This document shows, piece by piece, positions 2,932 to 33,097 of a stretch of 64,000 nt of DNA (the stretch's first letter is position 1; each line of letters starts with the position of its first letter). Source of the stretch: Alphaproteobacteria bacterium. Its GTDB lineage: Bacteria; Pseudomonadota; Alphaproteobacteria; GCA-2746255. A model generated the notes under the pieces. It was given only the letters and a program-made list of their open reading frames with translations, was not told where the DNA came from and searched no databases. The translations under genes were made by a program, and so were the position numbers. The DNA is taken from NCBI GenBank assembly GCA_965249135.1, contig OZ252220.1:1504001-1568000 (forward strand). Direction: 5' to 3'.

Positions 2932-3066
2932 GGGCCCTTCTCTCCCTTCCTGATCACTTTAATATGAATCGACGCCTTCGCGGAATTTGCGATGCGTGCG
3001 CCTTGGAAATGGCGGCTTTCAGAGTGCCCGGCCATCGCGGGGCGCACGCGAACGGGCCTTTGCGCC

Positions 3067-3720
3067 TTATCCATCGGGAAGCCGGGCCTCGGGCGCTCTC
3101 AGGTAGATGGGGCGAAGGTTTGCCGCCGGCTCCCGCGTAGCGGCGAGGCGCGCGATGACCGTGGCCTGCGGGTGACCGGGGGCCTCGGACCAGCGAACCG
3201 CTTGGCCATCGAAGACGTCGCGGAGCAAGGGCGCCCCATCGCCGACGATGAGAAGGGGGCCGTCGTGGCCGAAGCCGGCACAGGCCGAAGACACCAGGAC
3301 CTCGGCTTGCGTGAATGGACGCAGCGCCTCATCGAAACCTTGGACGTAGAGGTCGCTTCGCTTCGTGTCCAAGGCGACCAGAAGCCGGCGGCCTTCCCGT
3401 TCCGAAGGGGCGACCCCGTTGGCGACCGCCTCGAAGGTCGTCACGCCCACCACCGGCAGGCCGCCGGCCAGTGCGATGCCGCGCGCCGCGGCCAGCCCGA
3501 CGCGAAGCCCGGTGAAGGAACCGGGCCCAAGCGTCGTCGCCAGACGATCAAGGCCTGCGAAGGGCACGGCCGCCTCGGCCAGCACCTCCTCGACGAGGCC
3601 GAGCAACGCCTCCGCCTGGCCGCGCTCCATTTCCAGAAGGCGCGACGAAAGGATCCGGTCATCCTCGAGAAGGGCGGCCGAGCAGGCGCGAGCGGCGGTG
3701 TCGAAGGCAAGAATCTTCAT
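3067..3720 (-). CDS. tsaB: t6A biosynthesis protein TsaB
   Basis: MKILAFDTA start; GPGSFTGLRVG motif; PIYLR near C-terminus. Confidence 0.92.
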   Translation of the reverse strand: MKILAFDTAARACSAALLEDDRILSSRLLEMERGQAEALLGLVEEVLAEAAVPFAGLDRLATTLGPGSFTGLRVGLAAARGIALAGGLPVVGVTTFEAVANGVAPSEREGRRLLVALDTKRSDLYVQGFDEALRPFTQAEVLVSSACAGFGHDGPLLIVGDGAPLLRDVFDGQAVRWSEAPGHPQATVIARLAATREPAANLRPIYLRAPEARLPDG

Positions 3721-3828
3721 CGCCCGGTCCAAAAGGTTGCCAAGGATAAGGTGGCGGGCGAAATTCTAGCCCAAGATGGACCGAAGGCTTGTAAAAACCG
3801 CACCGATCCCGGAAAGCTTGTGCAAGCG

Positions 3829-4407
3829 ATGGACGATCGGCCCAAGACACCCTTGATTGAAATCACGGCGCGCGATGGCGTGGCATTGTCCCTTGCCTAT
3901 GCCGCGGCGGCAAATTTCACCGGCAAGCCGATCTATGCTCACGCGCGCTGCTATCTGCATCCGGACGCGGCTTTGCTGCTTCACGACGCCGTAGCCATTG
4001 CCGAACGCTTCGGCCATCGTCTCAAGATCTTCGACGGCTTCCGCCCGGCGGAGGCGCAACAAATCCTATGGGATGCCTGTCCGAATCCGGAATTCCTGGC
4101 TGATCCGAAGAAGGGCTCGCCCCACTCCCGGGGGGTCGCGATCGACCTCACGCTTGCCGATCGGACAGGCAAGGAACTCGACATGGGCACGCCGTTCGAT
4201 GCCTTCACGCCGCTTTCGCACCACGGCAATGGAGAAATTGCCCTTGATGCGAGTCGCAATCGGCTCTTTCTTTTGGGGCTGATGACGGACGCCGGCTGGG
4301 ATTTCTACCGGAACGAATGGTGGCATTATCAGTTGTTCGATGCGAAGCGTTACCCACTTCTTCACGACGCCGATCTCGGTCTTGGCATGCTAGGCTTAAG
4401 AACATGA
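3829..4407 (+). CDS. ddpX: D-alanyl-D-alanine dipeptidase (M15D, VanX/DdpX family)
   Basis: DGFRP, SPHSRGVAIDLTL, MGTPFD, EWWHY motifs; start re-assigned to ATG 3829 within ORF 2992-4407. Confidence 0.88.
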   Translation: MDDRPKTPLIEITARDGVALSLAYAAAANFTGKPIYAHARCYLHPDAALLLHDAVAIAERFGHRLKIFDGFRPAEAQQILWDACPNPEFLADPKKGSPHSRGVAIDLTLADRTGKELDMGTPFDAFTPLSHHGNGEIALDASRNRLFLLGLMTDAGWDFYRNEWWHYQLFDAKRYPLLHDADLGLGMLGLRT

Positions 4408-24146: not shown

Positions 24147-25556
24147 ATGCCCGAGCGTGGTCAGCCCCGAACCATTCCCAAGCGTTGGTTCCTCCTGTGG
24201 GCGGCCGTCGTGGCACCCGGCGTCGGCGTGCTGGCGCTGCTGGTCCTGTTTAGCCAGGCCACGCTGTGGCCGGCGATCCTTGGCGGGACGCTGGGCGCCG
24301 TCGCGCTTTTCTTCATCGTTCGCGCCTATCTCGCCGATTTCGATGCGGTCATCGCCTATATCGGCGATCTGGCCCGGGGCGGAAAGCCGCCGACGCCGGA
24401 AGTTCGCGGGCATAGCGCATCGGATGAAATTCTTTCCGTGATCGAGGCGCTCAACCGATCGCAGATCCGGCGAACGGCGGAACTTGAAACGCTCGCCGAA
24501 GCAAACGTCACCATCCTCGACAGCATCCCCGATCCGTTACTTCTGCTCGACGGCGCGCGGCGGATCCGTCAGGCGAACCGGGCGGCGCGCGCGTTGGTGA
24601 CGGCAAATCCAATCGGTCAGGATCTCGCCGCCGTCATTCGCGATCCGGTGCTTCTCGAGGAAGTCGACGTCGCACTCGAAACCCGGTCGGATCGCGAGGC
24701 CCAGTTCACGTTTCCCTATCCCCGCCCGCAGCACTTCCTGGTTCGCATCATCCCGCTTGCGAAACCAGCCAAGGATGGCACGGCATTGATCGTCAGCCTC
24801 CACGATCTTACGGCGGTGAAGCAGTTGGAACAGACGCGCGTCGACTTCATCGCGAATGTGAGCCACGAACTCCGCACGCCGCTTTCCACGCTCGTCGGTT
24901 TCATCGAGACCCTCCAGGGGCCCGCAAAGGATGACCCGAAAGCGCGCGCGCACTTCTTGGAAATCATGGATGGTCAGACGAAACGGATGGTGCGGTTGGT
25001 CGAAGACCTGCTCTCCCTTTCCCGGATCGAGCTTAGCGAACATCTCTTGCCCCCCGGCACGGTTCCGATCGGCGATGTGCTGAAGACGTTACGTGACATG
25101 CTTGCGCTCGAGGCGAAATCCCAAGGCATGACGATCGAGCTCGAATTGGCGGCAGACCTGCCGGAGATCCCCGGCGACCGGGACGAGCTGACCCAGCTCT
25201 TTCAGAACCTCATCGACAACGCCATCAAATATGGCGGCGCCGACACGGTGATCCGGATCGCGGCAAGAAAGGTGGCGCGTCCAACTGTGAGCGGCCTTCC
25301 CGGACCGGTCCTTAGCGTGGCGGTGCGGGACGAAGGCGAGGGGATCGCGCCGGAGCATCTCTCGCGGCTGACGGAGCGTTTCTACCGCATCGACCGGGCG
25401 CGTTCGCGGGAGCTTGGAGGCACCGGGCTGGGCCTGGCCATCGTGAAACACATCGTGAACCGCCACCGGGGCAGGCTAACGATCGAAAGCACCCTTGGAA
25501 CGGGCAGCATCTTCACGGTCTTCCTGCCTTTGGAGGCGGAAGCGGTACAGTCCTAA
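24147..25556 (+). CDS. phoR: Phosphate regulon sensor kinase PhoR (last codons supplied by the IS end)
   Basis: TM segments, PAS, DFIANVSHELRTPL, NAIKYG, GGTGLGL; upstream of pst operon. Confidence 0.9.
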   Translation: MPERGQPRTIPKRWFLLWAAVVAPGVGVLALLVLFSQATLWPAILGGTLGAVALFFIVRAYLADFDAVIAYIGDLARGGKPPTPEVRGHSASDEILSVIEALNRSQIRRTAELETLAEANVTILDSIPDPLLLLDGARRIRQANRAARALVTANPIGQDLAAVIRDPVLLEEVDVALETRSDREAQFTFPYPRPQHFLVRIIPLAKPAKDGTALIVSLHDLTAVKQLEQTRVDFIANVSHELRTPLSTLVGFIETLQGPAKDDPKARAHFLEIMDGQTKRMVRLVEDLLSLSRIELSEHLLPPGTVPIGDVLKTLRDMLALEAKSQGMTIELELAADLPEIPGDRDELTQLFQNLIDNAIKYGGADTVIRIAARKVARPTVSGLPGPVLSVAVRDEGEGIAPEHLSRLTERFYRIDRARSRELGGTGLGLAIVKHIVNRHRGRLTIESTLGTGSIFTVFLPLEAEAVQS

Positions 25557-25637
25557 TTTGGGATGAAGTGTCCTAAATACGTGCATGGAGTGTCCAAAAT
25601 TAACCGAACACTAACCCAGCCGAGGCATTAATGAATT

Positions 25638-25919
25638 ATGGAATCCAAGACTGATATGCGCGCCGATCTAGAGCGGGTTCTAGCCTGGGCCAACGAAAAG
25701 CTTGCTGCGGGACAGGAGCCCCCGTGGGCTTGGTATCAGTACATGAAGCTGCGCGAGACGCTTGAGGCCATCTTGGCGGGGATGGATGCCGTTACCACGG
25801 AGGGTTCACCTCAATCGGCTGAACATTTGGAAAAGCATCTCCGGCTAGTGGCAGATACCGATCCGCAAGATAGCGCTCCACGCCGTCCCGCTGGGCTGCC
25901 GACACGGCTGCCCATGTGA
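25638..25919 (+). CDS. Hypothetical small protein (cargo), overlapping the nuclease-like ORF in antisense
   Basis: GAGG upstream; helical N-terminus WANEKLAAGQEPPWAWYQYMKL. Confidence 0.5.
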   Translation: MESKTDMRADLERVLAWANEKLAAGQEPPWAWYQYMKLRETLEAILAGMDAVTTEGSPQSAEHLEKHLRLVADTDPQDSAPRRPAGLPTRLPM

Positions 25920-26142
25920 CGTGAAGGACTCCCCGCTTTGCATAAGCAAGAATTTTTGGATCGGCACGGTGTTGGGCCAACCGGCCGGCAACATCTCCCT
26001 GTCCCAAACGAACGACGCGGTCAGGATCGCCTTCATGCCAGATGATGTAAACACCAGCCGTTTTCATATTTAGATTCAGGCGCTCAAACAAACACCAGTG
26101 GCCGTCATCGCCACATTTTATCCATTTAACTGTCAGCATCAT
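25792..26142 (-). CDS. Small GIY-YIG-like nuclease (cargo)
   Basis: GVYIIW...VRLGQG.V..RL.QH...VERYL pattern resembles the GIY-YIG fold; second motif degenerate. Confidence 0.6.
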   Translation of the reverse strand: MMLTVKWIKCGDDGHWCLFERLNLNMKTAGVYIIWHEGDPDRVVRLGQGDVAGRLAQHRADPKILAYAKRGVLHVTWAAVSAAQRDGVERYLADRYLPLAGDAFPNVQPIEVNPPW

Positions 26143-26947
26143 TCGATTCCTTCATTCCCGTAGTTGACGGCTGCCCCTTCTCGCCGTCCCGATAGACAAG
26201 CTCAAAGCTGTTTTCCAGAATACCGAGCCAGAGCTTGCGTTCGGACTTCGGCCATGTGTCGCCGGACTTGGGGAGCCGATTAATAAGCCCCCGAATAATG
26301 GGGTCTAAACTGAACTCATTGCCACCCCCGCCATTGTCGTGCGCGCCGGTCCCACTACCTTTATTATGGTTATCGGCTGGTGGCGTAACATGCCCCCCGC
26401 TTTTAGTGCCAGGCTGGACCAGTCGGTCCTTTCCGTTTTCATAAAAATTGGCTTCAGCGGCAGATCGTTCCAGTGTTTGCCGTGCGCGGGCCTTTTGCTT
26501 TTCAGCAACGCCAAAAGTCACCAAAGCGCGTTCTAGTTTTGCCGCTGGCGGGATTTGTTGACCACGCCAGTTTTCATAAACGCGCTTAAACAACGGGACA
26601 TTGAGGAACGCTTGAACTTTTGCTGCCCGCGCGTGGTGTTCATCAAGCGCTTTGGGCGCGAGATCCGATAGTCGGACGCCGGACGATTTGCCTGACTCGA
26701 TCAAACCAAACAGCCGCGTCGCCGACATGCGGGACCGATAACCGCTGCTCTTGGAACTGAGGTCAGTCCACGCCGCCACCTGATCATCGGTGCAATCGTC
26801 TGCCCCAGCGTTATTTGATATGGCACGGACAATCTTGAGGCATTCGCCCAAGTCAAAATATGGAAATTGAATAGACGATCGTTCGTAGTTGGAACCATCG
26901 CCCTGGTTGCCCTGTGCCGCTGCGTTGGCTTCCTCGTCACCATTCAT
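26126..26947 (-). CDS. Hypothetical ~273-aa protein with possible winged-helix domains (cargo)
   Basis: Own promoter and SD (AGAAAGGA); FPYFDL...SATRLFGLIE region, Gly/Asn-rich linker, C-terminal WPKSERKLWL domain; overlaps start of the nuclease-like ORF. Confidence 0.7.
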   Translation of the reverse strand: MNGDEEANAAAQGNQGDGSNYERSSIQFPYFDLGECLKIVRAISNNAGADDCTDDQVAAWTDLSSKSSGYRSRMSATRLFGLIESGKSSGVRLSDLAPKALDEHHARAAKVQAFLNVPLFKRVYENWRGQQIPPAAKLERALVTFGVAEKQKARARQTLERSAAEANFYENGKDRLVQPGTKSGGHVTPPADNHNKGSGTGAHDNGGGGNEFSLDPIIRGLINRLPKSGDTWPKSERKLWLGILENSFELVYRDGEKGQPSTTGMKESNDADS

Positions 26948-26986
26948 GTGAACCACCCAATCCTTTCTTTTGGATTCAACGGGCAC

Positions 26987-27015
26987 ATTATGAGCGCGAC
27001 TGTCTGCGTCGTCAA
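26987..27015 (-). promoter_or_regulatory. sigma70 promoter for cargo operon
   Basis: TTGACG-17 nt-CATAAT on minus strand. Confidence 0.7.
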
Positions 27016-27035
27016 GCAATATTTTGGATTCGAGG

Positions 27036-27064
27036 TTGACAGATGGATTCGCGGCAGACATAAT
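27036..27064 (+). promoter_or_regulatory. sigma70 promoter for the mini-ORF/tRNA-like transcript
   Basis: TTGACA-17 nt-CATAAT on plus strand. Confidence 0.75.
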
Positions 27065-27092
27065 AGGCTCGCAACAACCGAGGAGACCTGCC

Positions 27093-27176
27093 ATGAGGAG
27101 GGTCGAGAGCCTCTGGCGACGTAGCCGACCAAAGGGGGCGAGGAAAAAGACAGGGGCCGTGCCTCTACCCCGCTAA
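27093..27176 (+). CDS. Putative 27-aa basic mini-ORF MRRVESLWRRSRPKGARKKTGAVPLPR
   Basis: GAGGAG SD 7 nt before ATG, just downstream of the promoter; begins ATG AGG AGG. Confidence 0.4.
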   Translation: MRRVESLWRRSRPKGARKKTGAVPLPR

Positions 27177-27212
27177 AGGTCTGGAACGGCCCCTTAATCG
27201 GCACTAACTGGG

Positions 27213-27283
27213 CCCCGGTTCGTCTAGTGGCAGGACCCCCTCTTTACAGGTCGGAGACCTACGTTCAAATCGTAGACCAGGGA
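27213..27283 (+). tRNA. Degenerate tRNA-Val(TAC)-like cloverleaf (pseudo-tRNA or tRNA mimic)
   Basis: Acceptor CCCCGGT/ACCAGGG (6/7), D arm GTCT-AGTGGCA-GGAC, anticodon stem CCCTC/GTCGG (3/5) with loop TTTACAG, perfect T arm CTACG-TTCAAAT-CGTAG; no encoded CCA. Confidence 0.65.
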
Positions 27284-27284
27284 C

Positions 27285-27291
27285 TTTTTTT
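27285..27291 (+). terminator. T7 tract just after the tRNA-like structure (possible intrinsic termination point)
   Basis: TTTTTTT one base after the discriminator. Confidence 0.4.
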
Positions 27292-27446
27292 AAACCGGGA
27301 ACCGATGGCTGTTGTAGCAGCCACCGGCCCTTGATCAAAAACCCAGGGATTTGGCCCCTGAGCCGTGACCGAGGAATATATAGCAGATTCAGAGCTGTAT
27401 TTCCACAATGGCATGGGCCTATCCCGAGCAAATAGGGATTGGTCCC

Positions 27447-28322
27447 ATGAACATTCTACCGCTTGATAGGCAAATCCAAGCCGTTAGCGCCCTTACCGAG
27501 GGGTGTTCCATCCGCGCGGCCGAACGCCTTACAGGCGTCCACCGGGACACAATCATGCGCCTTGGGGTCCGAGTCGGGGAAGGGTGCCAGCACCTCCATG
27601 ACCGGCAGATGCAGGGGCTTCATGTCCCCATCATCGAATTGGACGAGATTTGGGCCTATGTCGGCATGAAACAACGGAAGGCTGGCCCGCACCCAGAGAT
27701 GGGCGACCAGTACACCTGCACAGCCCTAGACGCGACGAACAAGGCAATCATCTCCTACCTCACAGGCAAGCGGGACGCGCCGAATACTCACGCCTTTGCT
27801 TACGATCTTGCCAGCCGCATTACGAACCGGCCCGAAGTCACGTCCGATGGCTTTGGGCCTTATGTAGAAGCCGTCCTTGGCGCGTTTGGGTATGACGGGG
27901 TGGATTTTGGCCAGATCGTCAAGCACTACGAGGGCGAGCGAGGGCAACAGGCTTCCCGAAAATACTCCCCCGGCCGAATTGTAAGCGTACAGAAAACCGT
28001 AGTATCCGGCACGCCACGTCGCCTTTCGACCTCCCTCGTTGAACGGTCGAATCTAACCCTTCGGATGCAGCAACGGCGGTTCACTCGACTGACCAATGGG
28101 TTCAGCAAGAAGCTCCAAAACCACAAGGCAGCGGTCAGCCTTTTCGTGGCTCACTACAACTTTTGCCGGGTCCACAGTACCATCCAGATCACGCCAGCCA
28201 TGGCTCTTGGGGTCACAGACCACATCTGGACCATCGGCGAATTGATCGAAGCGGCGACCGGACCCGAGCCACAAGGTCACACGGCTGGACGGTTCCGGGT
28301 GATTGATGGCGGATTGTCCTAA
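27447..28322 (+). CDS. IS1-family single-ORF DDE transposase
   Basis: HTH EGCSIRAAERLTGVHRDTI, ELDEIWAYVG, TSDGF, STSLVERSNLTLR, RRFTRLTNGFSKK, TPAMA. Confidence 0.9.
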   Translation: MNILPLDRQIQAVSALTEGCSIRAAERLTGVHRDTIMRLGVRVGEGCQHLHDRQMQGLHVPIIELDEIWAYVGMKQRKAGPHPEMGDQYTCTALDATNKAIISYLTGKRDAPNTHAFAYDLASRITNRPEVTSDGFGPYVEAVLGAFGYDGVDFGQIVKHYEGERGQQASRKYSPGRIVSVQKTVVSGTPRRLSTSLVERSNLTLRMQQRRFTRLTNGFSKKLQNHKAAVSLFVAHYNFCRVHSTIQITPAMALGVTDHIWTIGELIEAATGPEPQGHTAGRFRVIDGGLS

Positions 28323-28366
28323 GTTCATGCGGCGACTGTCCTAATTCAGCCAGTACCGCGGAAGCG

Positions 28367-28384
28367 GCGTCATAAATCCGTCAT
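28367..28384 (+). promoter_or_regulatory. Pho box upstream of pstS
   Basis: GCGTCAT-AAAT-CCGTCAT, two half-sites 11 bp apart. Confidence 0.8.
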
Positions 28385-28410
28385 AGAACTCCGCTACCCC
28401 TTTCTGGGTC

Positions 28411-29448
28411 ATGGGGAGGAAACTGCTTCTCGCTGCCGCTATTGCCGCCGTCGGTCTGGGTTCGGCCTTTGCGTCCGACACCCGCAACCAGATCCGCATC
28501 GTCGGGTCTTCGACCGTCTTCCCGTTTTCCACCGCGGCTGCCGAAGAATTCGGACAAATGACGAACTTCAAGACGCCGGTCGTCGAGAACACCGGTTCCG
28601 GCGGCGGTCTGAAGCTGTTCTGCTCAGGAATCGGGCTCGCTCATCCCGACATCACGAATGCCTCGCGTCGGATCAAGGATTCGGAAGTGGCGAGGTGCGC
28701 GAAGAACGGCGTCGGCAACATCACGGAAGTCAAGATCGGGTTCGACGGCATCGTGCTCGCAAATTCGAAGAAGGCAAAACGCTTCGCACTTACCCGGAAG
28801 GCGATCTGGCTGGCGCTCGCAAAAGACGTTCCGGACGCTTCCGGCAAGTTGGTACCCAATCCCAACACGACCTGGAAGGATGTGGACGCAAGCCTTCCCG
28901 ACAGGAAAATCGAAGTGCTGGGCCCGCCGCCGACGTCTGGCACGCGGGATGCCTTCGTCGAGCTTGCGATGGAAAGCGGCTGCAAGACGTTTCCGAGCAT
29001 CTTGGCGATGAAGAAGACGGACAAGATGAAGTACAAGGCCATCTGCCACTCGATCCGCGAGGATGGGGCCTTCATCGATGCCGGCGAAAACGACAATCTG
29101 ATCGTCCAGAAACTTAAATCGAACCCGGCCGCCCTTGGCGTCTTTGGGTTCAGCTTCCTCGATCAGAACCGGGACAAGGTCCAGGGCAGCCTCGTGGACA
29201 AGGCCGAGCCCAGCTTCGACAACATTTCAAGCGGGAAATATCCGGTCTCGCGTTCCCTATACTTCTACGTGAAGAACGCCCATGTCGGCATCGTGCCGGG
29301 GATTGCGGAATACATCGACGCCTTCACGAGCGAGACCGCCTGGGGACCTTACGGCTATTTGGCCGATCGGGGGCTTATTCCGCTGCCCGTGGAAGAGCGG
29401 GAGAAAGTCCGCAGCGGGGCGATGAGCCTGACACCCTATGCCAAGTAA
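28411..29448 (+). CDS. pstS: Phosphate ABC transporter substrate-binding protein
   Basis: Signal peptide; IVGSSTVFPF, TGSGGG, GPPPTSGTRDAF, YPVSRSLY. Confidence 0.93.
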   Translation: MGRKLLLAAAIAAVGLGSAFASDTRNQIRIVGSSTVFPFSTAAAEEFGQMTNFKTPVVENTGSGGGLKLFCSGIGLAHPDITNASRRIKDSEVARCAKNGVGNITEVKIGFDGIVLANSKKAKRFALTRKAIWLALAKDVPDASGKLVPNPNTTWKDVDASLPDRKIEVLGPPPTSGTRDAFVELAMESGCKTFPSILAMKKTDKMKYKAICHSIREDGAFIDAGENDNLIVQKLKSNPAALGVFGFSFLDQNRDKVQGSLVDKAEPSFDNISSGKYPVSRSLYFYVKNAHVGIVPGIAEYIDAFTSETAWGPYGYLADRGLIPLPVEEREKVRSGAMSLTPYAK

Positions 29449-29483
29449 TCCCGACTGGGCGATGAAAGCGCCGCTTAACGATC

Positions 29484-29519
29484 GCCGGAATTTAAGCCGG
29501 AATTTGAGCCGGAATCTGA
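29484..29519. repeat. Three tandem 12-bp repeats GCCGGAAT(T/C)T(A/G)A between pstS and pstC
   Basis: gccggaatttaa gccggaatttga gccggaatctga. Confidence 0.85.
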
Positions 29520-29523
29520 GAAC

Positions 29524-30900
29524 GTGATGGCTAGTTATTTATTCGTGATCGGCCTGCTCGCCCTCTCGTCTGCCGCCTTCGCGGTGGGGCGGCGGCGAGC
29601 CATGGCCATCGGCGCAGAGCAGCGCCTCCATTCCCGCCCGGCTCACCATGGGCTTTACGTCGCCCTTTGGTGCGTCGTTCCGGCGATCGTCCTTCTCACT
29701 CTGGGACTGCTTTTCGAAAGAACCCTGATTGGGGTCCTGCTCGCCACAACCACGGATCAAACGATCATCGACCAATTCGGCGGGCGCACCCTCTTCGTCG
29801 AAAAAGTCTGTTGGATCGTGGAAAGCGGCCTTACCAACCAGACAACGGAAACGCCCTTGCGTCTTGCGGCGCTCCACTATGCGGAGCTTAAGCAGATCGG
29901 TCAGGCGGGCCTTTTCGTGGTGGCGCTCACAGCCGCGCTCGGCGGGCTCGCCTGGGGACGGCGTGTCCTTAGCCCAACCTTTCGGGCCCGCAACCGGGTC
30001 GAAGGGTTCTTCCAGTTCGTGCTCATCGCGGGCTCGACGATCTCGGTCCTGACGACGATCGGCATCGTCCTTTCGATGCTGTTCGAAGCGATCCGCTTCT
30101 TTCAGCTCATCCCCTTCCACGAATTCCTGTTCGGGCTTCAATGGAGCCCGCAGACGGCGATCCGCGCGGACCAGGTCGGCCAGACCGGCGCCTTCGGCGC
30201 GATCCCGGTCTTCGCCGGCACGCTGTTGATCACCTTTCTTGCCATGCTGGTTGCCGTTCCGATCGGCATCTTCTCGGCCGTCTACACCGCGGAATACGCA
30301 CCGGCAAAGGTGCGGGCGACGGTGAAACCGGTCCTGGAAATCCTGGCCGGCGTGCCGACGGTCGTCTACGGCTTCTTTGCCGCCCTTACGGTGGCGCCGA
30401 TGGTACGGGACGGCGGTGGCATGCTTGGGCTCGACGTCGCCTCGGAAAGCGCGCTTGCCGCAGGCCTGGTGATGGGGATCATGATCATCCCCTTCATCTC
30501 GTCCCTTTCGGACGACGTGATTAACGCCGTCCCCCAAAGCCTGCGCGACGGTTCCTATGCGATCGGGGCGACGCAATCGGAAACGATCCGGAAAGTCGTC
30601 CTGCCGGCCGCCCTTCCCGGAATCGTGGGCGCCTTCCTGCTGGCCGTCTCACGCGCCATCGGCGAGACGATGATCGTCGTCATGGCGGCGGGCCTTGCGG
30701 CGAACTTGACTGCGAATCCCTTCGAGGCGGTGACGACGGTCACCGTCCAGATCGTGACGCTGCTGGTTGGCGATCAGGAATTCGACAGCGCGAAGACGCT
30801 GGCCGCCTTCGCCTTGGGCATCGCGCTCTTCACGATCACGCTTTTCCTGAATGTGATTGCTATCCGCGTCGTCGACAAATATCGGGAAAAATATGACTGA
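29524..30900 (+). CDS. pstC: Phosphate ABC transporter permease PstC
   Basis: KPVLEILAGVPTVVYG, SRAIGETMIV; operon position. Confidence 0.93.
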   Translation: MMASYLFVIGLLALSSAAFAVGRRRAMAIGAEQRLHSRPAHHGLYVALWCVVPAIVLLTLGLLFERTLIGVLLATTTDQTIIDQFGGRTLFVEKVCWIVESGLTNQTTETPLRLAALHYAELKQIGQAGLFVVALTAALGGLAWGRRVLSPTFRARNRVEGFFQFVLIAGSTISVLTTIGIVLSMLFEAIRFFQLIPFHEFLFGLQWSPQTAIRADQVGQTGAFGAIPVFAGTLLITFLAMLVAVPIGIFSAVYTAEYAPAKVRATVKPVLEILAGVPTVVYGFFAALTVAPMVRDGGGMLGLDVASESALAAGLVMGIMIIPFISSLSDDVINAVPQSLRDGSYAIGATQSETIRKVVLPAALPGIVGAFLLAVSRAIGETMIVVMAAGLAANLTANPFEAVTTVTVQIVTLLVGDQEFDSAKTLAAFALGIALFTITLFLNVIAIRVVDKYREKYD

Positions 30901-32185
30901 TACCGCAAACGCAACGAAGGAAAGGGTAATTTCCGCACACAGTCTTCGCCGGGCAAGGGCGGAGAAGCGGTTTCGCATTTACTGCGTCACCGCCGTCTCG
31001 ACCGCCATTGCGTTTCTTATCTTCTTGCTGGCCAGCGTTACATTAAGCGGATACACGGCAATCGTTCAGACGCACATTCGTCTCGACATCACTTATGACG
31101 AGGCCGTGTTTGAGCGCGATGGCAGCCGGTCGACCGCTGCCCTCATGCGGGCGGACTACGGCGTCCTCATCCGCCAAAGCCTGATGGCGAAGTTCCCGAA
31201 CGTGGAAGGCCGCAAGAATTTACGTCGCCTGTTTGCGTTGGTGAGTGAGAAGGCACGCTTCGAGCTACGCAAGGCAGTTACGGAAAACCCCGACCTCATC
31301 GGCAGCACCGGGTCGATCTGGCTCTCGGCATCGGGAGATGTCGACATGCTGATGAAAGGCTACATGCGGCGCGACGTAGCGGAAGGCGAACGACGCCTCG
31401 ACAACGAACAAATCGGCTGGATCGATTTACTCGCCTCGGAAGACTCGATCGAGAAAAAGTTCAACACCGCCTTCTTTACGCACGCGGATTCGCGCTCTCC
31501 GGAAATCGCCGGCGTGTGGGGCGCCGTCGTCGGCTCCTTCTATACGATGATCGTCACCTTACTGTTCGCCTTTCCGATCGGCCTCATGACCGGCATCTAC
31601 CTGGAGGAATTCGCAACGAAGAACCGCTGGGCGCGGCTGGTCGAGGTCAACATCAACAATCTGGCGGCCGTACCGTCGATCGTGTTTGGACTTCTCGGCC
31701 TTGCCGTCTTCCTGAACCTCGGCGGCCTGCCGCGCTCTGCACCCTTGGTGGGCGGGATCACGCTGGCGCTGATGACCTTGCCGACGATCATCATCGCGAC
31801 CCGGGCCTCGCTCCTTTCCATCCCGCCTTCCATCCGCGAGGCGGCGCGTGGCGTGGGCGCATCGGAAACCCAGGTCGTGCTGCATCACGTCGTGCCCCTG
31901 GCCATCCCCGGGATCCTGACCGGCACGATCATCGGGATGGCCCGCGCGCTCGGCGAGACGGCGCCGCTTTTGATGATCGGGATGGTGGCCTTCATCGCGG
32001 ACGTTCCGCAGAGCATCACGGACCCCTCGACCGCGCTGCCGGTCCAGATTTTCCTCTGGGCGGACAGCCCCGAGCGAGCCTTCGTCGAGCGCACGGCGGC
32101 GGCCACGCTGGTCCTGCTGGCCTTCCTGATCACCATGAACGGGCTTGCCATCTACTTGCGCAAACGATTCGAGCGCCGCTGGTAG
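30893..32185 (+). CDS. pstA: Phosphate ABC transporter permease PstA
   Basis: INNLAAVPSIVFGLLG, RALGETAPL. Confidence 0.93.
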   Translation: MTDTANATKERVISAHSLRRARAEKRFRIYCVTAVSTAIAFLIFLLASVTLSGYTAIVQTHIRLDITYDEAVFERDGSRSTAALMRADYGVLIRQSLMAKFPNVEGRKNLRRLFALVSEKARFELRKAVTENPDLIGSTGSIWLSASGDVDMLMKGYMRRDVAEGERRLDNEQIGWIDLLASEDSIEKKFNTAFFTHADSRSPEIAGVWGAVVGSFYTMIVTLLFAFPIGLMTGIYLEEFATKNRWARLVEVNINNLAAVPSIVFGLLGLAVFLNLGGLPRSAPLVGGITLALMTLPTIIIATRASLLSIPPSIREAARGVGASETQVVLHHVVPLAIPGILTGTIIGMARALGETAPLLMIGMVAFIADVPQSITDPSTALPVQIFLWADSPERAFVERTAAATLVLLAFLITMNGLAIYLRKRFERRW

Positions 32186-32200
32186 GAGAAATCGGCTAAA

Positions 32201-33097
32201 ATGGAAGCGATGGAACGTCAAATCGACGAAAAGAACCAAGAGACCCTGGACACGCGCGCGGCGCGGAAACCGGTAAACACGGTTTCCATGCCCGCCACGG
32301 CAAAGGGAGCAACGCCGTCACCAACGGAAGCTGGCGCATCGCCTCCGAAGATGTCGACGCGAAACCTCAACGTCTTCTACGATGACAAACAGGCATTGAC
32401 GAATGTCGATCTCGACATCCGAAAAAACGAGGTCACCGCCCTTATCGGCCCGTCGGGCTGCGGGAAGTCGACCTTCTTGCGTTGCCTAAACCGGATGAAC
32501 GATACGATCGAGGGCTGCCGCGTGACGGGAGCAGTGGCGCTCGATGGTCGGGATATTTATGAAAAGAGCCTCGACGTCGTCGAGTTGCGCGCCGAAATCG
32601 GGATGGTCTTTCAAAAGCCGAACCCGTTCCCGAAATCGATTTACGAGAACGTCGCCTATGGCCCACGCATCCACGGACTTGTAAAAAACCGGGCCGAGCT
32701 TGACGAGATCGTCATGACGAGCCTCGAGCGGGCGGGCCTGCTGAAAGAGGTGCAGGACCGCCTTCAGGAGCCGGGCACCAGCCTTTCCGGCGGTCAGCAG
32801 CAGCGCCTCTGCATCGCCCGTGCGATCGCGGTGAGCCCGGAAGTGATCCTGATGGACGAGCCCTGTTCGTCGCTGGACCCTATCGCCACGGCCCGCATCG
32901 AGGAGTTGATGGACGAGCTTCGCCAGAAATACACGATCGTCATCGTCACCCACGCGATGCAGCAGGCCGCGCGAGTCTCGCAACATACCGCCTTTTTCCA
33001 TCTTGGTGAGGTCGTCGAAGTTGGCGACACCGCGATGATCTTTACGAGCCCCAAGGATGAACGGACCCAAGGTTACATCACCGGCCGCTTCGGTTGA
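32201..33097 (+). CDS. pstB: Phosphate ABC transporter ATPase
   Basis: [30 protein letters not shown]. Confidence 0.95.

What the first reader, a model, noticed from the sequence alone, without database searches (positions are those of the whole stretch)
27213..27291. Hidden tRNA-Val(TAC)-like cloverleaf inside the IS, with intact D/T elbow but broken anticodon stem
Seen: a 71-nt cloverleaf with a perfect T arm, D-loop GG, 6/7 acceptor pairs and only 3/5 anticodon-stem pairs (C-C and U-U mismatches), no CCA, followed by T7. It lies inside the element, not at a boundary, so it is not an integration-site remnant. Inference: either a decaying phage-type tRNA or a tRNA mimic (decoy for an anticodon nuclease, RNase P processing signal, or RNA antitoxin) that keeps the elbow but may not decode.
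Basis: partly seen in the sequence, partly recalled or inferred. Interest (0 to 1): 0.75.

Follow-up and report, generated by a model that had tools for sequence, protein, structure and literature searches.

The report
Transposon-borne tRNA-like gene matching transposase codons
A small tRNA-shaped RNA gene sits in front of the transposase gene of a jumping-DNA element, and its anticodon matches a strictly conserved cluster of rare valine codons inside that transposase, which suggests the element tunes the synthesis of its own enzyme with a private tRNA.

Summary
The cloverleaf at 27213-27284 exists as described (ARAGORN tRNA-Val(tac); Rfam tRNA 39.8 bits). It is neither a chance fold nor a lone decaying tRNA. 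It belongs to a conserved family of tRNA-like elements lying about 210-245 nt upstream of a single-ORF IS1-family transposase. The family was found in 29 of 80 genome loci and 22 of 80 metagenome loci. Its acceptor and T stems covary strongly, the UAC triplet is near-invariant, and position 28:42 is a conserved mismatch.

The window's element is a 2.8-kb passenger-carrying IS (25546-28357). It has a 10-bp target duplication and sits between phoR and pstS; a same-genus genome has the empty site.

New here: transposases that carry the tRNA-like use GTA (Val) almost only in one central segment, 151 of 197 Val codons there against 18 of 543 elsewhere. Relatives without the tRNA-like mostly lack this cluster.

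Best reading, at about 50%: an element-encoded UAC decoder in the transposase leader controls translation through the GUA cluster. The window's copy is the weakest member. No expression data were available.

The parts
25546..28357 (.). Whole mobile element: a 2.8-kb IS1-family insertion sequence with passenger genes, inserted between phoR and pstS
   Evidence: The same-genus genome G002 has phoR directly abutting the pstS upstream region. GC is 50-59% inside the element against 60-67% in the flanks. It is single-copy in the genome.
25536..25545 (.). Left copy of the 10-bp target-site duplication GCGGAAGCGG
   Evidence: Read. The flanks align to the single empty site in G002.
28358..28367 (.). 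Right copy of the 10-bp target-site duplication GCGGAAGCGG
25546..25598 (.). Left end: imperfect terminal inverted repeat plus direct GTCCTAA-type repeats at 25550, 25570 and 25592 (the last reads GTCCAAA)
   Evidence: (I2). GTCCTAA 7-mers spaced 20-22 nt apart flank the transposase at similar distances in most of the 80 related loci.
28338..28357 (.). Right end: GTCCTAA motif and terminal inverted repeat
   Evidence: (I2).
26126..27094 (-). Passenger ORF, 322 aa as listed (more likely starts at M50, 26947). Function unknown. It is divergent from the leader.
   Evidence: Homologues lie in the same divergent position in 9 of 80 related loci. No Pfam, NCBIfam, PADLOC or PHROG match. The protein atlas gives only hypothetical-protein clusters, one auto-named Mrr-N-like. 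It has 0 GTA among 16 Val codons.
25792..26142 (-). Passenger ORF of 116 aa, function unknown. It overlaps a 93-aa ORF on the + strand (25638-25919).
   Evidence: A homologue lies downstream of the transposase in L051. No significant family match.
27036..27064 (+). Promoter-like site TTGACA-17-CATAAT (11 of 12) that would drive leader, tRNA-like and transposase as one transcript
   Evidence: Comparable sites (at least 9 of 12) occur upstream of the leader in 11 of 30 family loci against 6.8% of shuffles, many with the -10 ending near -380. Inferred only; no transcript data.
27093..27176 (+). Short leader ORF (27 codons, MRRVESL...) preceded by GAGGAG
   Evidence: The start ATG-NNN-AGG-AGR with an upstream GGAG recurs in most family loci. 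The rest of the peptide changes frame between loci.
27152..27194 (+). GC-rich hairpin H2 upstream of the tRNA-like, followed by the conserved UAAUCGGC
   Evidence: I17: 12-nt arms, 92% complementary. Conserved with covarying arms in the alignment. The strand on which it acts is not resolved.
27213..27284 (+). The tRNA-like element (UAC anticodon loop). This is the finding.
27285..27291 (+). T7 run directly after the tRNA-like. It is specific to this copy.
   Evidence: Not present in homologues. Not called a terminator by the scan.
27295..27331 (+). Conserved hairpin H3 downstream of the tRNA-like
   Evidence: The stems covary among loci.
27344..27446 (+). Duplicated box (CAGGGAUUUGGCCCCUG at 27344-27360; AGGGAUUGGUCCC at 27434-27446, abutting the ATG) with a complementary segment at 27414-27425. 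This may be a switch that sequesters the start codon.
   Evidence: Read. The two boxes change together between loci. The switch itself is an inference.
27447..28322 (+). IS1-family transposase, single ORF of 291 aa (an upstream in-frame ATG at 27408 gives 304 aa)
   Evidence: Pfam DDE_Tnp_IS1 31.3 bits against a cut-off of 24.1. 7414 relatives had E <= 0.001 among 8000 scored. The conserved D66, D134 and E199 are present.
27981..28004 (+). GTA (Val) codon cluster in the transposase: codons 179, 181, 185 and 186. One more GTA lies at codon 140 (27864-27866).
   Evidence: The same columns read GTA in 28 of 28, 27 of 28 and 29 of 29 Val-bearing family members.

Best explanation
The cloverleaf is one member of a conserved family of tRNA-like genes carried inside a subgroup of single-ORF IS1-family insertion sequences.

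Where it sits: in the long (about 370 nt), highly structured leader between the element's promoter and the transposase start codon. It is therefore most likely made as part of the transposase transcript. It would then be released by the ordinary tRNA-processing enzymes, which need only the acceptor/T-arm helix and the elbow that the family keeps.

What it resembles: its body looks like tRNA-Glu/Gln, but its anticodon is UAC.

Proposed action: it works through that anticodon on a cluster of otherwise avoided GUA (Val) codons in the middle of the transposase ORF. It would be a private decoder, probably accepting valine because UAC plus A73 are valine identity elements (recalled knowledge). In this way it would set how fast, or whether, ribosomes pass a built-in rare-codon bottleneck. 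That ties transposase output to the element's own leader RNA.

Shown here: the structure, its covariation, its position, its distribution, and the co-occurrence of codon cluster and anticodon.

Inferred: co-transcription, processing, charging, and the effect on translation.

The window's copy has lost pairs in the anticodon and acceptor stems and lacks CCA, so it is probably a weakened member beside an intact transposase gene.
For: (1) Real, selected structure. On 30 aligned members, 91.5% of cells pair, against 70.4% in shuffles (0 of 500 shuffles reach the observed value). 15 of 21 pairs show double changes. The acceptor stem shows double changes at 7 of 7 pairs and is 94.8% paired. The T stem is 98.7% paired and the D stem 100%.

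(2) Fixed position. ARAGORN at default settings finds a same-strand tRNA-244 nt upstream of the transposase in 20 of 80 genome loci. The family model finds at least 62 bits in 29 of those 80, of which 28 were training sequences and L045 was not. In a fresh set of 80 metagenome loci, none used for training, 22 score at least 66 bits at the same offset.

(3) The anticodon is the conserved part. UAC occurs in 29 of 30, U lies 5' of it in 25 of 30, a purine lies 3' in 26 of 30, and A73 occurs in 26 of 30. CCA is encoded in 14 of 30.

(4) Codon match.
- In the 30 transposase genes with the tRNA-like, GTA makes up 151 of 197 Val codons in alignment columns 160-197 and 22 of 27 at column 344. Elsewhere it makes up 18 of 543.
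- Three columns read GTA in 28 of 28, 27 of 28 and 29 of 29 Val-bearing sequences, while neighbouring codons vary freely at third positions.
- The baseline in host long ORFs is 7.2% GTA. The passenger ORFs have 0 of 30.

(5) Co-occurrence.
- Set 1 has 79 genes. With a tRNA-like and core GTA: 46. With neither: 23. GTA only: 9. tRNA-like only: 1.
- Replicate set 2 has 61 evaluable loci of 80. The same four classes count 38, 15, 7 and 1. Fisher p = 3e-8, not corrected for relatedness.
- Lineages nested among carriers that lack the tRNA-like also lack GTA: L013, L049/L052/L062 and L059/L063/L074.
- L132 carries a tRNA-Trp(CCA)-like gene in the same slot and has no GTA at the core columns.
- Four plasmid relatives at about 40% identity have neither feature.

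(6) Distant clades (Myxococcota, Verrucomicrobiota, Planctomycetota, Fibrobacterota) carry differently built tRNA-likes with the same YUACA loop and a single conserved GTA at column 163.

(7) Body origin. The family model scores host tRNA-Gln(ctg) at 59.8 bits and tRNA-Glu(ttc) at 59.1 bits, the best of all host tRNAs. Host tRNA-Val(tac) is not among the 18 matches listed, the weakest of which scores 29 bits. The D arm is identical in type to that of host tRNA-Glu.

(8) One promoter-like site lies upstream of the leader, and no terminator was called before the transposase.
Against: - No expression, processing or charging data exist; no RNA run was listed.
- Under the fixed pairing register, 17 of 30 members have 8-nt anticodon loops.
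- 21 of 30 have C in place of the near-universal U55.
- 20 of 27 have a 28:42 mismatch.
- 4 of 30 have a pyrimidine at position 37.
- In some distant members the UAC sits one base out of canonical register, so ARAGORN reads 'tta'. All of these features are odd for an efficient decoder.
- The host already has a canonical tRNA-Val(UAC), so GUA can be read without the element's tRNA.
- The phylogenetically independent test is underpowered. Of 8 contrasts, the codon trait follows in about 4, opposes in 0 and is unchanged in about 4; median sign-test p = 0.125.
- Exceptions exist. L143, L145 and L148 have four core GTA codons but no tRNA-like within 800 nt upstream. L030 lost the tRNA-like yet keeps 2 core GTA. 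L083 has a tRNA-like on the opposite strand and no core GTA.
- The 'variant' tRNA-likes were recognised partly through a YTAC motif, which builds UAC into that class.
- In the window itself the cloverleaf is weak: -8.8 kcal/mol against an MFE of -19.5, z = 0.28.
Confidence: 0.5

Rival explanations
1. A purely cis-acting structural module. The tRNA shape is kept only so that RNase P and 3' processing enzymes cut the leader. That cut would separate the transposase mRNA from upstream or read-through transcription and set its stability. The loop motif YUACA would be a protein- or RNA-contact site, and the GTA cluster would have an unrelated cause, for example a generic translational pause site.
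For: - The acceptor and T stems are the best-kept helices and the anticodon stem is the worst, at 72.8% paired.
- Non-tRNA features are common: C55 in 21 of 30 and 8-nt loops in 17 of 30.
- The register of UAC within the loop shifts among clades.
- Stable hairpins flank the tRNA-like on both sides, as expected for protecting processed ends.
- Clades without the tRNA-like have other rare codons (ATA AGA) at the same place, so a pause site may exist regardless.
Against: - Processing needs no particular anticodon, yet UAC is kept in 29 of 30.
- The codon complementary to UAC is the one enriched, at fixed positions, and mostly in carriers.
- The L132 case fits an anticodon-codon link: a Trp-type tRNA in the slot and no GTA.
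Confidence: 0.22
2. Negative regulator acting by faulty decoding. The element's tRNA-like, with its 8-nt or otherwise odd anticodon loop, competes with host tRNA-Val at the GUA-GUA-x-GUA run. It causes +1 slippage or abortive decoding. Because GUA followed by a purine reads UAG or UAA in the +1 frame, this would truncate the protein after the DNA-binding half and before the catalytic E. The truncated product would inhibit transposition, giving copy-number control.
For: - 17 of 30 loops are 8 nt long.
- GTA is followed by a purine in 171 of 191 cases, against 61% for all codons.
- The tandem GTA GTA always contains TAG in the +1 frame.
- All 6 genomes examined hold a single full-length copy.
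- Frameshift-based control is the rule in classical IS1 (review PMC5009743, passages read).
Against: - 13 of 30 loops are 7 nt long.
- The purine enrichment is partly a by-product of the tandem GTA.
- Quadruplet reading gives an immediate stop only in the tandem context, not at column 163 (GTA AAA).
- No truncated product or downstream stimulator has been shown.
Confidence: 0.13
3. In this window the element is simply a dead relic. The family may be functional elsewhere, but this copy has decayed and does nothing.
For: - It has the lowest family-model score of the 31 full-length matches of at least 62 bits: 62.2 bits against 66-91.
- 17 pairs form, against 19-20 typical, and the cloverleaf is worth -8.8 kcal/mol.
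- C1-G72 replaces the family's U1-A72, and there is no CCA.
- One of the three core GTA columns has become ATT.
- A T7 run follows the tRNA-like that homologues lack.
Against: - The transposase ORF is intact with all invariant residues.
- The target duplication is perfect.
- UAC, the elbow nucleotides and four clustered GTA codons are retained.
- L009 shares the same one-base deletion in the anticodon stem yet pairs perfectly.
Confidence: 0.12
4. One reading: a decoy for an anticodon nuclease, an RNA antitoxin, or a decaying phage-type tRNA.
For: tRNA shape with a defective anticodon stem. Neighbouring ORFs of unknown function.
Against: - No defence, toxin or phage family matched the neighbours at a significant level.
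- The constant partner across more than 50 loci is the transposase, while the passengers vary.
- The element is an IS with a target duplication, not a prophage.
Confidence: 0.03

Closest known systems
Canonical bacterial elongator tRNA, in particular tRNA-Val(UAC) and tRNA-Glu/Gln
   Same: Cloverleaf with G18 G19, T arm, A73 and a UAC anticodon. It passes the Rfam tRNA gathering score. Its D arm and overall body are closest to host tRNA-Glu/Gln.
   Different: - It scores 34-53 bits, against 55-72 for real tRNAs in the same loci.
- It has a conserved 28:42 mismatch, 8-nt loops in 17 of 30 and C55 in 21 of 30.
- It lies inside an IS, in front of the transposase.
- It is unrelated in sequence to the host's own tRNA-Val(UAC).
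bldA tRNA-Leu(UAA) and TTA-codon control in Streptomyces (recalled knowledge, not read here)
   Same: It works in a similar way. A codon avoided in a GC-rich genome is placed in particular genes and depends on one dedicated tRNA, which gives control at the level of translation.
   Different: bldA is a chromosomal, canonical tRNA acting in trans on many genes. Here the tRNA-like and its target codons sit on the same mobile element, probably on the same transcript, and the codons are clustered at fixed positions.
tRNA genes carried by phages and other mobile elements
   Same: A mobile element supplies a tRNA that matches its own codon usage.
   Different: To my knowledge this has not been described for insertion sequences. 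Searches found nothing relevant. Here there is a single tRNA-like element inside an mRNA leader, and the match is to a position-specific cluster rather than to overall codon usage. [quoted passage not shown]
Classical IS1 (InsA / InsAB' made by -1 frameshifting) and Ty1/Ty3 (+1 frameshifting governed by scarce tRNAs)
   Same: Transposase output is set during translation elongation. The transposase is in the same family as IS1. The Ty elements depend on tRNA supply (review PMC5009743, passages only).
   Different: Here the ORF is single with no frameshift site. The element appears to bring the tRNA itself, and it is 2.8 kb long with passenger genes.
tRNA-like structures of plant RNA viruses (valine-accepting type) and tRNA-mRNA co-transcripts processed by RNase P (recalled knowledge)
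   Same: A tRNA-shaped module embedded in a longer RNA. Valine-type identity elements are present (A35, C36, A73).
   Different: The viral structures are 3'-terminal pseudoknotted mimics. This one is an internal, ordinary cloverleaf in a 5' leader, and it is linked to complementary codons downstream.

Membership tests
Canonical tRNA (Rfam RF00005) | Score at or above the curated gathering threshold | tested here: met
   39.8 bits against 29 with permissive filters. The whole-window scan with fast filters missed it.
Canonical tRNA (Rfam RF00005) | Four regular helices: 7-bp acceptor stem and 5-bp anticodon stem | tested here: not met
   The window has 6 of 7 acceptor pairs and 3 of 5 anticodon pairs. 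In the family the anticodon stem is 72.8% paired, with 28:42 unpaired in 20 of 27.
Canonical tRNA (Rfam RF00005) | 7-nt anticodon loop with U33 and purine 37; T loop with U54-U55-C56 | tested here: inconclusive
   The window meets both (loop UUUACAG, T loop UUCAAAU). Across the family, 17 of 30 have 8-nt loops and 21 of 30 have C55.
Canonical tRNA (Rfam RF00005) | Expressed, processed, CCA-ended and aminoacylated | not testable with these tools
   No RNA-type sequencing run was listed. CCA is not encoded in the window but is encoded in 14 of 30 homologues.
IS-borne UAC tRNA-like family (defined here, model R1) | Same-strand cloverleaf 210-245 nt upstream of a single-ORF IS1-family transposase, with covarying stems | tested here: met
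   The window scores 62.2 bits with the cloverleaf starting at -234 from the transposase ATG. The window was one of the 30 training sequences, so its own score is partly circular. Out-of-training support comes from L045 and 22 of 80 metagenome loci.
IS-borne UAC tRNA-like family (defined here, model R1) | UAC triplet in the anticodon loop, paired with a GTA cluster at transposase columns 188-196 | tested here: met
   The window has a UAC loop. GTA occurs at codons 179, 181, 185 and 186; the first core column reads ATT.
IS1 family insertion sequence | DDE transposase of the IS1 type | tested here: met
   Pfam PF03400 scores 31.3 bits against 24.1. NCBIfam transpos_IS1 scores 55.9 bits, below its equivalog cut-off of 100, so this is a distant subgroup. 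Database relatives are named 'IS1 family transposase'.
IS1 family insertion sequence | Terminal inverted repeats and a short target-site duplication | tested here: met
   A 10-bp direct repeat GCGGAAGCGG flanks the insert and a relative has the empty site. The terminal repeats are imperfect, about 11 of 16 (I2, and by eye).
IS1 family insertion sequence | Two ORFs joined by -1 frameshifting (the classical IS1 arrangement) | tested here: not met
   A single 291-aa ORF in the window and in most relatives.
tRNA integration-site remnant (att site of an integrative element) | A partial tRNA copy at the element boundary, duplicating a host tRNA | tested here: not met
   It is a complete cloverleaf lying internally, more than 1 kb from either end. 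It is not similar to any host tRNA beyond general tRNA features; the best identity is 50 of 72.

The most novel reading that the evidence does not exclude
An insertion sequence encodes its own aberrant tRNA. The tRNA has a tRNA-Glu/Gln-type body, a UAC anticodon and often an 8-nt loop. The element has also written a dedicated GUA-GUA-x-GUA 'landing site' into its transposase gene. The tRNA-like would then decide the fate of ribosomes at that site. They could read through to full-length transposase, or undergo +1 slippage or abortive decoding into the UAG/UAA stops that GUA-purine creates in the +1 frame. The second outcome would yield a truncated DNA-binding inhibitor. This would be a self-contained, tRNA-based copy-number control and cis-preference device for a transposon. 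It would also be the first case of a mobile element using a private tRNA to recode its own gene.
Probability: 0.15. Interest if true: 0.92.

Novelty: new variant of a known kind. Interest (0 to 1): 0.8.

Why it matters
Insertion sequences are thought of as minimal: ends plus a transposase. Their self-restraint is known to rest on frameshifting, antisense RNAs or inhibitor proteins. Here a widespread IS1-family subgroup carries a conserved tRNA-like gene in the transposase leader, and the transposase holds a matching, position-specific cluster of a codon the hosts avoid. The subgroup has thousands of database relatives and occurs in Alphaproteobacteria, Myxococcota, Verrucomicrobiota, Planctomycetota and other lineages.

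If the link is functional, three things follow:
- It adds a new layer, a private tRNA, to transposon regulation.
- It is a natural example of codon-tRNA pairing used as a genetic switch on a mobile element.
- It explains a class of odd 'tRNA-Val', 'tRNA-Cys' or undetermined calls that annotation pipelines will make next to IS1-family genes (ARAGORN labels).

It is directly testable with synonymous recoding and compensatory anticodon swaps. It also gives a clean system for asking how non-canonical tRNAs (8-nt loops, C55) behave on the ribosome.

Tried and rejected
- Host tRNA duplicate: rejected. The best global identity to any of the 47 host tRNAs is 50 of 72, and the host Val tRNAs are unrelated.
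- Other copies in the genome: none. Five other genomes each hold one full-length copy.
- Other Rfam families: nothing near threshold. The only hit of note is a weak antisense match to BjrC68 (16.6 bits against 39; E 0.14) over hairpin H2, which did not recur in 12 related loci at the gathering threshold.
- Strand of the flanking hairpins. Reverse strands fold somewhat better (H3: reverse lower in 21 of 28; post-tRNA region: 24 of 28). However, the + strand is T-poor at 13-19%, which by itself favours G-U pairs on the reverse strand. Left unresolved.
- Kissing interaction between the anticodon loop and the H3 loop. It is possible in the window and in L009 by eye, but not in loci with the CGCUAA-type loop. 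Dropped.
- Family model R1 on 151 genomes of the class. It was uninformative for distribution because real tRNA-Gln/Glu score 55-66 bits. Used only to show which host tRNAs the family resembles.
- Sequencing runs: no RNA holder was listed. Two runs of unknown kind from one study hold the stretch; read laying was not used.
- Passenger proteins: no family found in Pfam, NCBIfam, PADLOC or PHROGs. The atlas gave only hypothetical clusters.
- Leader ORF as a conserved peptide: rejected beyond its first 4-5 residues, because frames differ between loci.
- Literature. The searches were: 'tRNA-like + IS1 family + transposase' (0 papers); 'tRNA-like + insertion sequence + transposase + leader' (6, none relevant by title or abstract); 'ISMhu11' (0); 'insertion sequence/transposase/rare codon/own tRNA' (21 papers, 12 listed, none relevant); 'IS1 family + passenger gene' (2, not relevant). 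Only PMC5009743 was opened, and only as passages. Supplements were not consulted. Subscription-journal papers are not covered, so 'not in print' is not proven.
Full report
**1. The observation**

Window 27213-27284 (+) reads CCCCGGU-UC-GUCU-AGUGGCA-GGAC-C-CCCUC-UUUACAG-GUCGG-AGAC-CUACG-UUCAAAU-CGUAG-ACCAGGG-A, followed by C and T7.
- 6 of 7 acceptor pairs
- GG in the D loop
- 3 of 5 anticodon-stem pairs, with C.C and U.U mismatches
- a perfect T arm
- no CCA
- T7 at 27285-27291

ARAGORN calls it tRNA-Val(tac), its only call in the window. Rfam's tRNA model gives 39.8 bits against a gathering score of 29 (E 6.9e-07) when 701 nt are searched with permissive filters. The whole-window scan with fast filters lists nothing.

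On thermodynamics alone the copy is unimpressive. The MFE fold is not the cloverleaf, the z-score is 0.28, and 113 of 200 shuffles fold at least as well.

**2. Context**

The flanking host genes are a PAS/HisKA histidine kinase (phoR-like, 24147-25556) and pstS-pstC-pstA-pstB (28411-33097). Four features lie between them:
- a 93-aa ORF on the + strand, overlapping a 116-aa ORF on the - strand
- a 322-aa ORF on the - strand
- the tRNA-like
- a 291-aa IS1-family transposase at 27447-28322 (Pfam DDE_Tnp_IS1 31.3 bits against 24.1; NCBIfam transpos_IS1 55.9 bits, below its equivalog cut-off of 100)

A same-genus genome (G002) has the kinase gene directly abutting the pstS upstream region. Aligning it with both window junctions shows an insertion of 25546-28357, flanked by the 10-bp direct repeat GCGGAAGCGG at 25536-25545 and 28358-28367. 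The termini form an imperfect inverted repeat (I2) and carry GTCCTAA motifs.

In most of 80 related loci the same 7-mer occurs in clusters spaced 20-22 nt apart. These lie 1.3-2.4 kb upstream and 0.9-3.3 kb downstream of the transposase start. The family therefore consists of IS elements with passenger genes. The element is single-copy in this 2.12-Mb genome and in five other genomes tested (5 of 5).

**3. A conserved family**

The transposase has a very large family: 7414 proteins had E <= 0.001 among 8000 scored. I fetched 80 loci from species-representative genomes.

- ARAGORN at default settings finds a same-strand tRNA-244 nt upstream of the transposase in 20 of the 80. The calls are labelled Val(tac), Cys(aca), Arg(acg) or undetermined, because the loop length varies.
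- BLAST homology between loci typically runs from about -360 to the transposase stop codon. The alignment of the upstream region shows a rich conserved leader.
- On 30 aligned tRNA-likes the cloverleaf is strongly supported. 91.5% of cells pair against 70.4% in shuffles (0 of 500 shuffles reach this). 15 of 21 pairs have changes on both sides. The acceptor stem shows 7 of 7 such pairs and is 94.8% paired. The T stem is 98.7% paired and the D stem 100%. Sliding the partners by one column drops pairing to 52-60%.
- The anticodon stem is the weak helix, at 72.8% paired. Position 28:42 is unpaired in 20 of 27, so a mismatch there is a family trait rather than local decay.
- The covariance model R1 finds at least 62 bits in 29 of the 80 loci, plus the window and L009. 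Of those 29, 28 were training rows and L045 was not.
- Three verrucomicrobial loci give weaker matches further upstream or on the other strand.
- In 80 metagenome loci never used for training, 22 score at least 66 bits at the same offset.
- The window scores 62.2 bits, the lowest of these full-length matches.

**4. Anatomy of the family**

- UAC is present in 29 of 30 members; L039 has UGC.
- The base 5' of UAC is U in 25 of 30. The base 3' is a purine in 26 of 30.
- The discriminator is A in 26 of 30. CCA follows it in 14 of 30.
- The T loop has C at position 55 in 21 of 30.
- Under a fixed pairing register, 17 of 30 loops have 8 nt and 13 have 7 nt.
- With R1 the best-scoring host tRNAs are Gln(ctg) at 59.8 bits and Glu(ttc) at 59.1 bits. 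Host Val(tac) is not among the 18 matches listed, the weakest of which scores 29 bits.
- The D arm (UCGUCUAG.GG..AGGAC) is that of host tRNA-Glu. The family's U1-A72 is that of host tRNA-Gln.

I infer that the family derives from a Glu/Gln-type tRNA whose anticodon became UAC.

Other architectures with the same YUACA loop exist:
- D-arm-less forms in L022, L026 and L153
- forms with a long variable arm in L027, L038, L040, L050, L151, L177, L200 and L205
- 67-93-nt forms in Myxococcota, Planctomycetota, Fibrobacterota, Desulfobaccales and Verrucomicrobiota

**5. The codon link (new in this stage)**

Because the anticodon is the most conserved part, I counted its cognate codon.
- Transposase genes with the tRNA-like use GTA for 186 of 746 Val codons. 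Those without use it for 89 of 1013.
- The window's gene uses it for 5 of 21. Five host genes in the window use it for 8 of 163.
- Host long ORFs have 7.2% GTA.

The GTA codons are position-specific. In the 30 carrier genes they make up 151 of 197 Val codons in alignment columns 160-197, 22 of 27 at column 344, and only 18 of 543 elsewhere. Three columns, forming the motif Y-S-P-(G/A)-x-GTA-GTA-nnn-GTA, read GTA in 28 of 28, 27 of 28 and 29 of 29 Val-bearing sequences. About 25 other Val columns have 0 or 1 GTA, and the codons just before the motif vary freely at third positions.

In the length-variable stretch just upstream, Val residues at non-conserved positions are also mostly GTA: 4 of 5, 8 of 10, 3 of 3, 4 of 8 and 8 of 8. 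This suggests the codon itself is what is selected. The passenger ORFs contain no GTA (0 of 30 Val codons).

In the window the cluster is at codons 179, 181, 185 and 186 (27981-28004). The first core column has become ATT.

**6. Co-occurrence**

Set 1 (79 alignable genes):

| tRNA-like | core GTA (cols 163/188/189/191) | genes |
|---|---|---|
| yes | yes | 46 |
| no | no | 23 |
| no | yes | 9 |
| yes | no | 1 |

- Lineages nested among carriers that lack the tRNA-like also lack GTA. L013 reads GTC GTC GTC. L049, L052 and L062 have 0-1 GTA in the whole gene. L059, L063 and L074 are similar.
- L030 appears to have lost the tRNA-like recently and keeps 2 of the 3.
- The tree-based test of independent contrasts never goes the wrong way but is underpowered. 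Of 8 contrasts on supported branches, about 4 go the same way, 0 go the opposite way, and about 4 show no difference. Median p is 0.125.

Replicate set 2 (61 evaluable of 80; 18 were dropped for under 450 nt upstream or under 250 codons, and L134 for a short ORF). Classification was automated: R1 at least 39 bits, or a T arm plus a YTAC motif.

| tRNA-like | core GTA | loci |
|---|---|---|
| yes | yes | 38 |
| no | no | 15 |
| no | yes | 7 |
| yes | no | 1 |

Fisher p is 3e-8, not corrected for relatedness. Inspection of the discordant loci showed the following:
- L153 and L188 have variant UAC tRNA-likes that the filters missed.
- The single locus with a tRNA-like but no GTA (L132) carries a regular-looking tRNA-Trp(CCA) in the same slot.
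- L143, L145 and L148 are true exceptions. They have four core GTA codons, and an XRE-like gene lies upstream in place of the leader.
- L197 and L209 have one GTA each.

Four plasmid-borne relatives at about 40% identity (Hoeflea, Mesorhizobium loti, Acidiphilium, Methylocapsa) have short promoters, no tRNA-like and no cluster.

In distant clades the tRNA-like co-occurs with a single conserved GTA at column 163. All 9 loci in which the filter found a same-strand T arm plus YUAC show it.

**7. Mechanism**

*Shown:* a selected cloverleaf at a fixed place in the leader, a conserved UAC, and a matching, position-specific and otherwise avoided codon in the adjacent gene.

*Inferred:*
- Co-transcription. 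There is one promoter-like site, TTGACA-17-CATAAT at 27036-27064, and no terminator was called. Similar sites occur in 11 of 30 loci against 6.8% of shuffles.
- Release by RNase P and 3' processing.
- Charging. UAC plus A73 are valine identity elements by recalled knowledge. In clades without the tRNA-like the same columns hold Val or Ile, so valine is the expected residue.
- An effect on ribosome transit through the cluster.

The cluster lies between the second D and the E of the catalytic triad (D66, D134, E199). That is after the DNA-binding half of the protein has emerged from the ribosome, so a regulated pause there could also favour action in cis. This last point is my inference.

Clades without the tRNA-like often have other rare codons (ATA AGA) at the same place, which fits a pause site as the underlying feature.

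The odd traits of the family (8-nt loops, C55, the 28:42 mismatch) keep open the opposite sign of action. On that reading, a poor decoder provokes +1 slippage into the UAG/UAA that GUA-purine creates. GTA is followed by a purine in 171 of 191 cases against 61% overall.

**8. The window's copy**

Compared with the family, this copy has:
- C1-G72 instead of U1-A72
- a C4.A69 mismatch
- a one-base deletion in the 3' strand of the anticodon stem, shared with L009, plus two substitutions that leave 3 of 5 pairs
- A57 in the T loop
- no CCA
- a T7 run after the cloverleaf

Its cloverleaf is worth -8.8 kcal/mol, against -15 to -27 for members that align in register. The transposase ORF, the target duplication and most of the GTA cluster are intact. 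I read it as a weakened but recognisable member.

**9. Comparison and novelty**

- It is not a member of the ordinary working tRNA set, and it is not an att-site remnant.
- In the way it may work, it resembles dedicated-tRNA/rare-codon control (bldA-type, recalled). It also resembles tRNAs carried by phages and elongation-level control of transposases (IS1, Ty; PMC5009743, passages read).
- I found no description of an IS-borne tRNA-like or of the codon cluster in five literature searches. These do not cover subscription journals. Rfam has no family for the leader.
- I rate it a new variant of a known kind, with high interest. The main uncertainty is the lack of any expression or biochemical data.

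Noticed in passing
window 27075-27446, and L010-L057 about -380 to -1 from the transposase start: The whole leader of about 370 nt is conserved and structured. In order it holds: a promoter; an SD plus a short ORF starting ATG-NNN-AGG-AGR (two rare Arg codons); hairpin H1 with a conserved GCCGACCGG that is complementary to UAAUCGGC after hairpin H2; the tRNA-like; hairpin H3; and an ATATAGC box at about -75. No Rfam family covers it.
   Followed up: partly
window 27344-27360, 27414-27425 and 27434-27446: A box (GGGAUUUGGCCCC) occurs twice, once about 100 nt upstream of the start codon and once abutting it. A complementary segment lies between the two. The two boxes change together between loci. 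This looks like an alternative-pairing switch that hides or exposes the transposase start. No Shine-Dalgarno sequence is evident before the ATG.
   Followed up: no
window 27310-27316, and the H3 loops of related loci: The apical loop of hairpin H3 comes in two classes, CGCUAA-type and UUGGCG/UUGGAAG-type. These are roughly reverse complements of each other, as if the hairpin tip had been flipped between lineages.
   Followed up: no
L028, L029, L033, L047, L056, L152, L155, L159 (transposase alignment columns 188-189): Clades without the UAC tRNA-like often carry ATA AGA, two other very rare codons, where the alphaproteobacterial clade has GTA GTA. No matching tRNA-like was found upstream of them.
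   Followed up: partly
L132 about 551-624: One metagenome locus has a regular-looking tRNA-Trp(CCA) in the slot where the UAC tRNA-like normally sits. Its transposase has no GTA at the core columns.
   Followed up: partly
L054 (-463 to -283) and L073 (-583 to -494, opposite strand): Myxococcal relatives carry one or two long-arm tRNA-likes that ARAGORN calls 'tRNA-Stop(tta)', because the UUUACA motif sits one base out of register in a 7-nt loop. One L054 copy has the loop CUUUAAA.
   Followed up: no
window 25530-25560 and 28358-28410: The insertion replaced the last few codons of the phoR-like kinase, whose stop codon now lies inside the element's left end. It also moved pstS 2.8 kb away from the kinase gene. 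Effects on Pho regulation are unknown.
   Followed up: no
window 26126-27094 (-), and L014, L023, L031, L035, L036, L037, L068, L072, L084: The 322-aa passenger protein recurs, divergently oriented, next to the leader in 9 of 80 related elements. It has no known family. A back-to-back promoter pair is predicted at 26987-27064.
   Followed up: partly
L143, L145, L148, and plasmid loci L126, L127, L129: Other subgroups of this transposase family have an XRE/HTH-type gene directly upstream instead of the structured leader. This suggests alternative regulatory solutions, protein against RNA.
   Followed up: no
G000:C1:1316907-1316986 (outside the window): ARAGORN lists an 80-nt tRNA-Ala(cgc) with the anticodon at position 32, in addition to a normal 76-nt Ala(cgc). 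It may be another aberrant tRNA call in this genome.
   Followed up: no
L009 (G022:C67) about 3001-3884: The closest relative found among the related genomes searched has a well-paired tRNA-like with CCA, but its transposase is split into two overlapping ORFs, by a frameshift or an assembly error.
   Followed up: no
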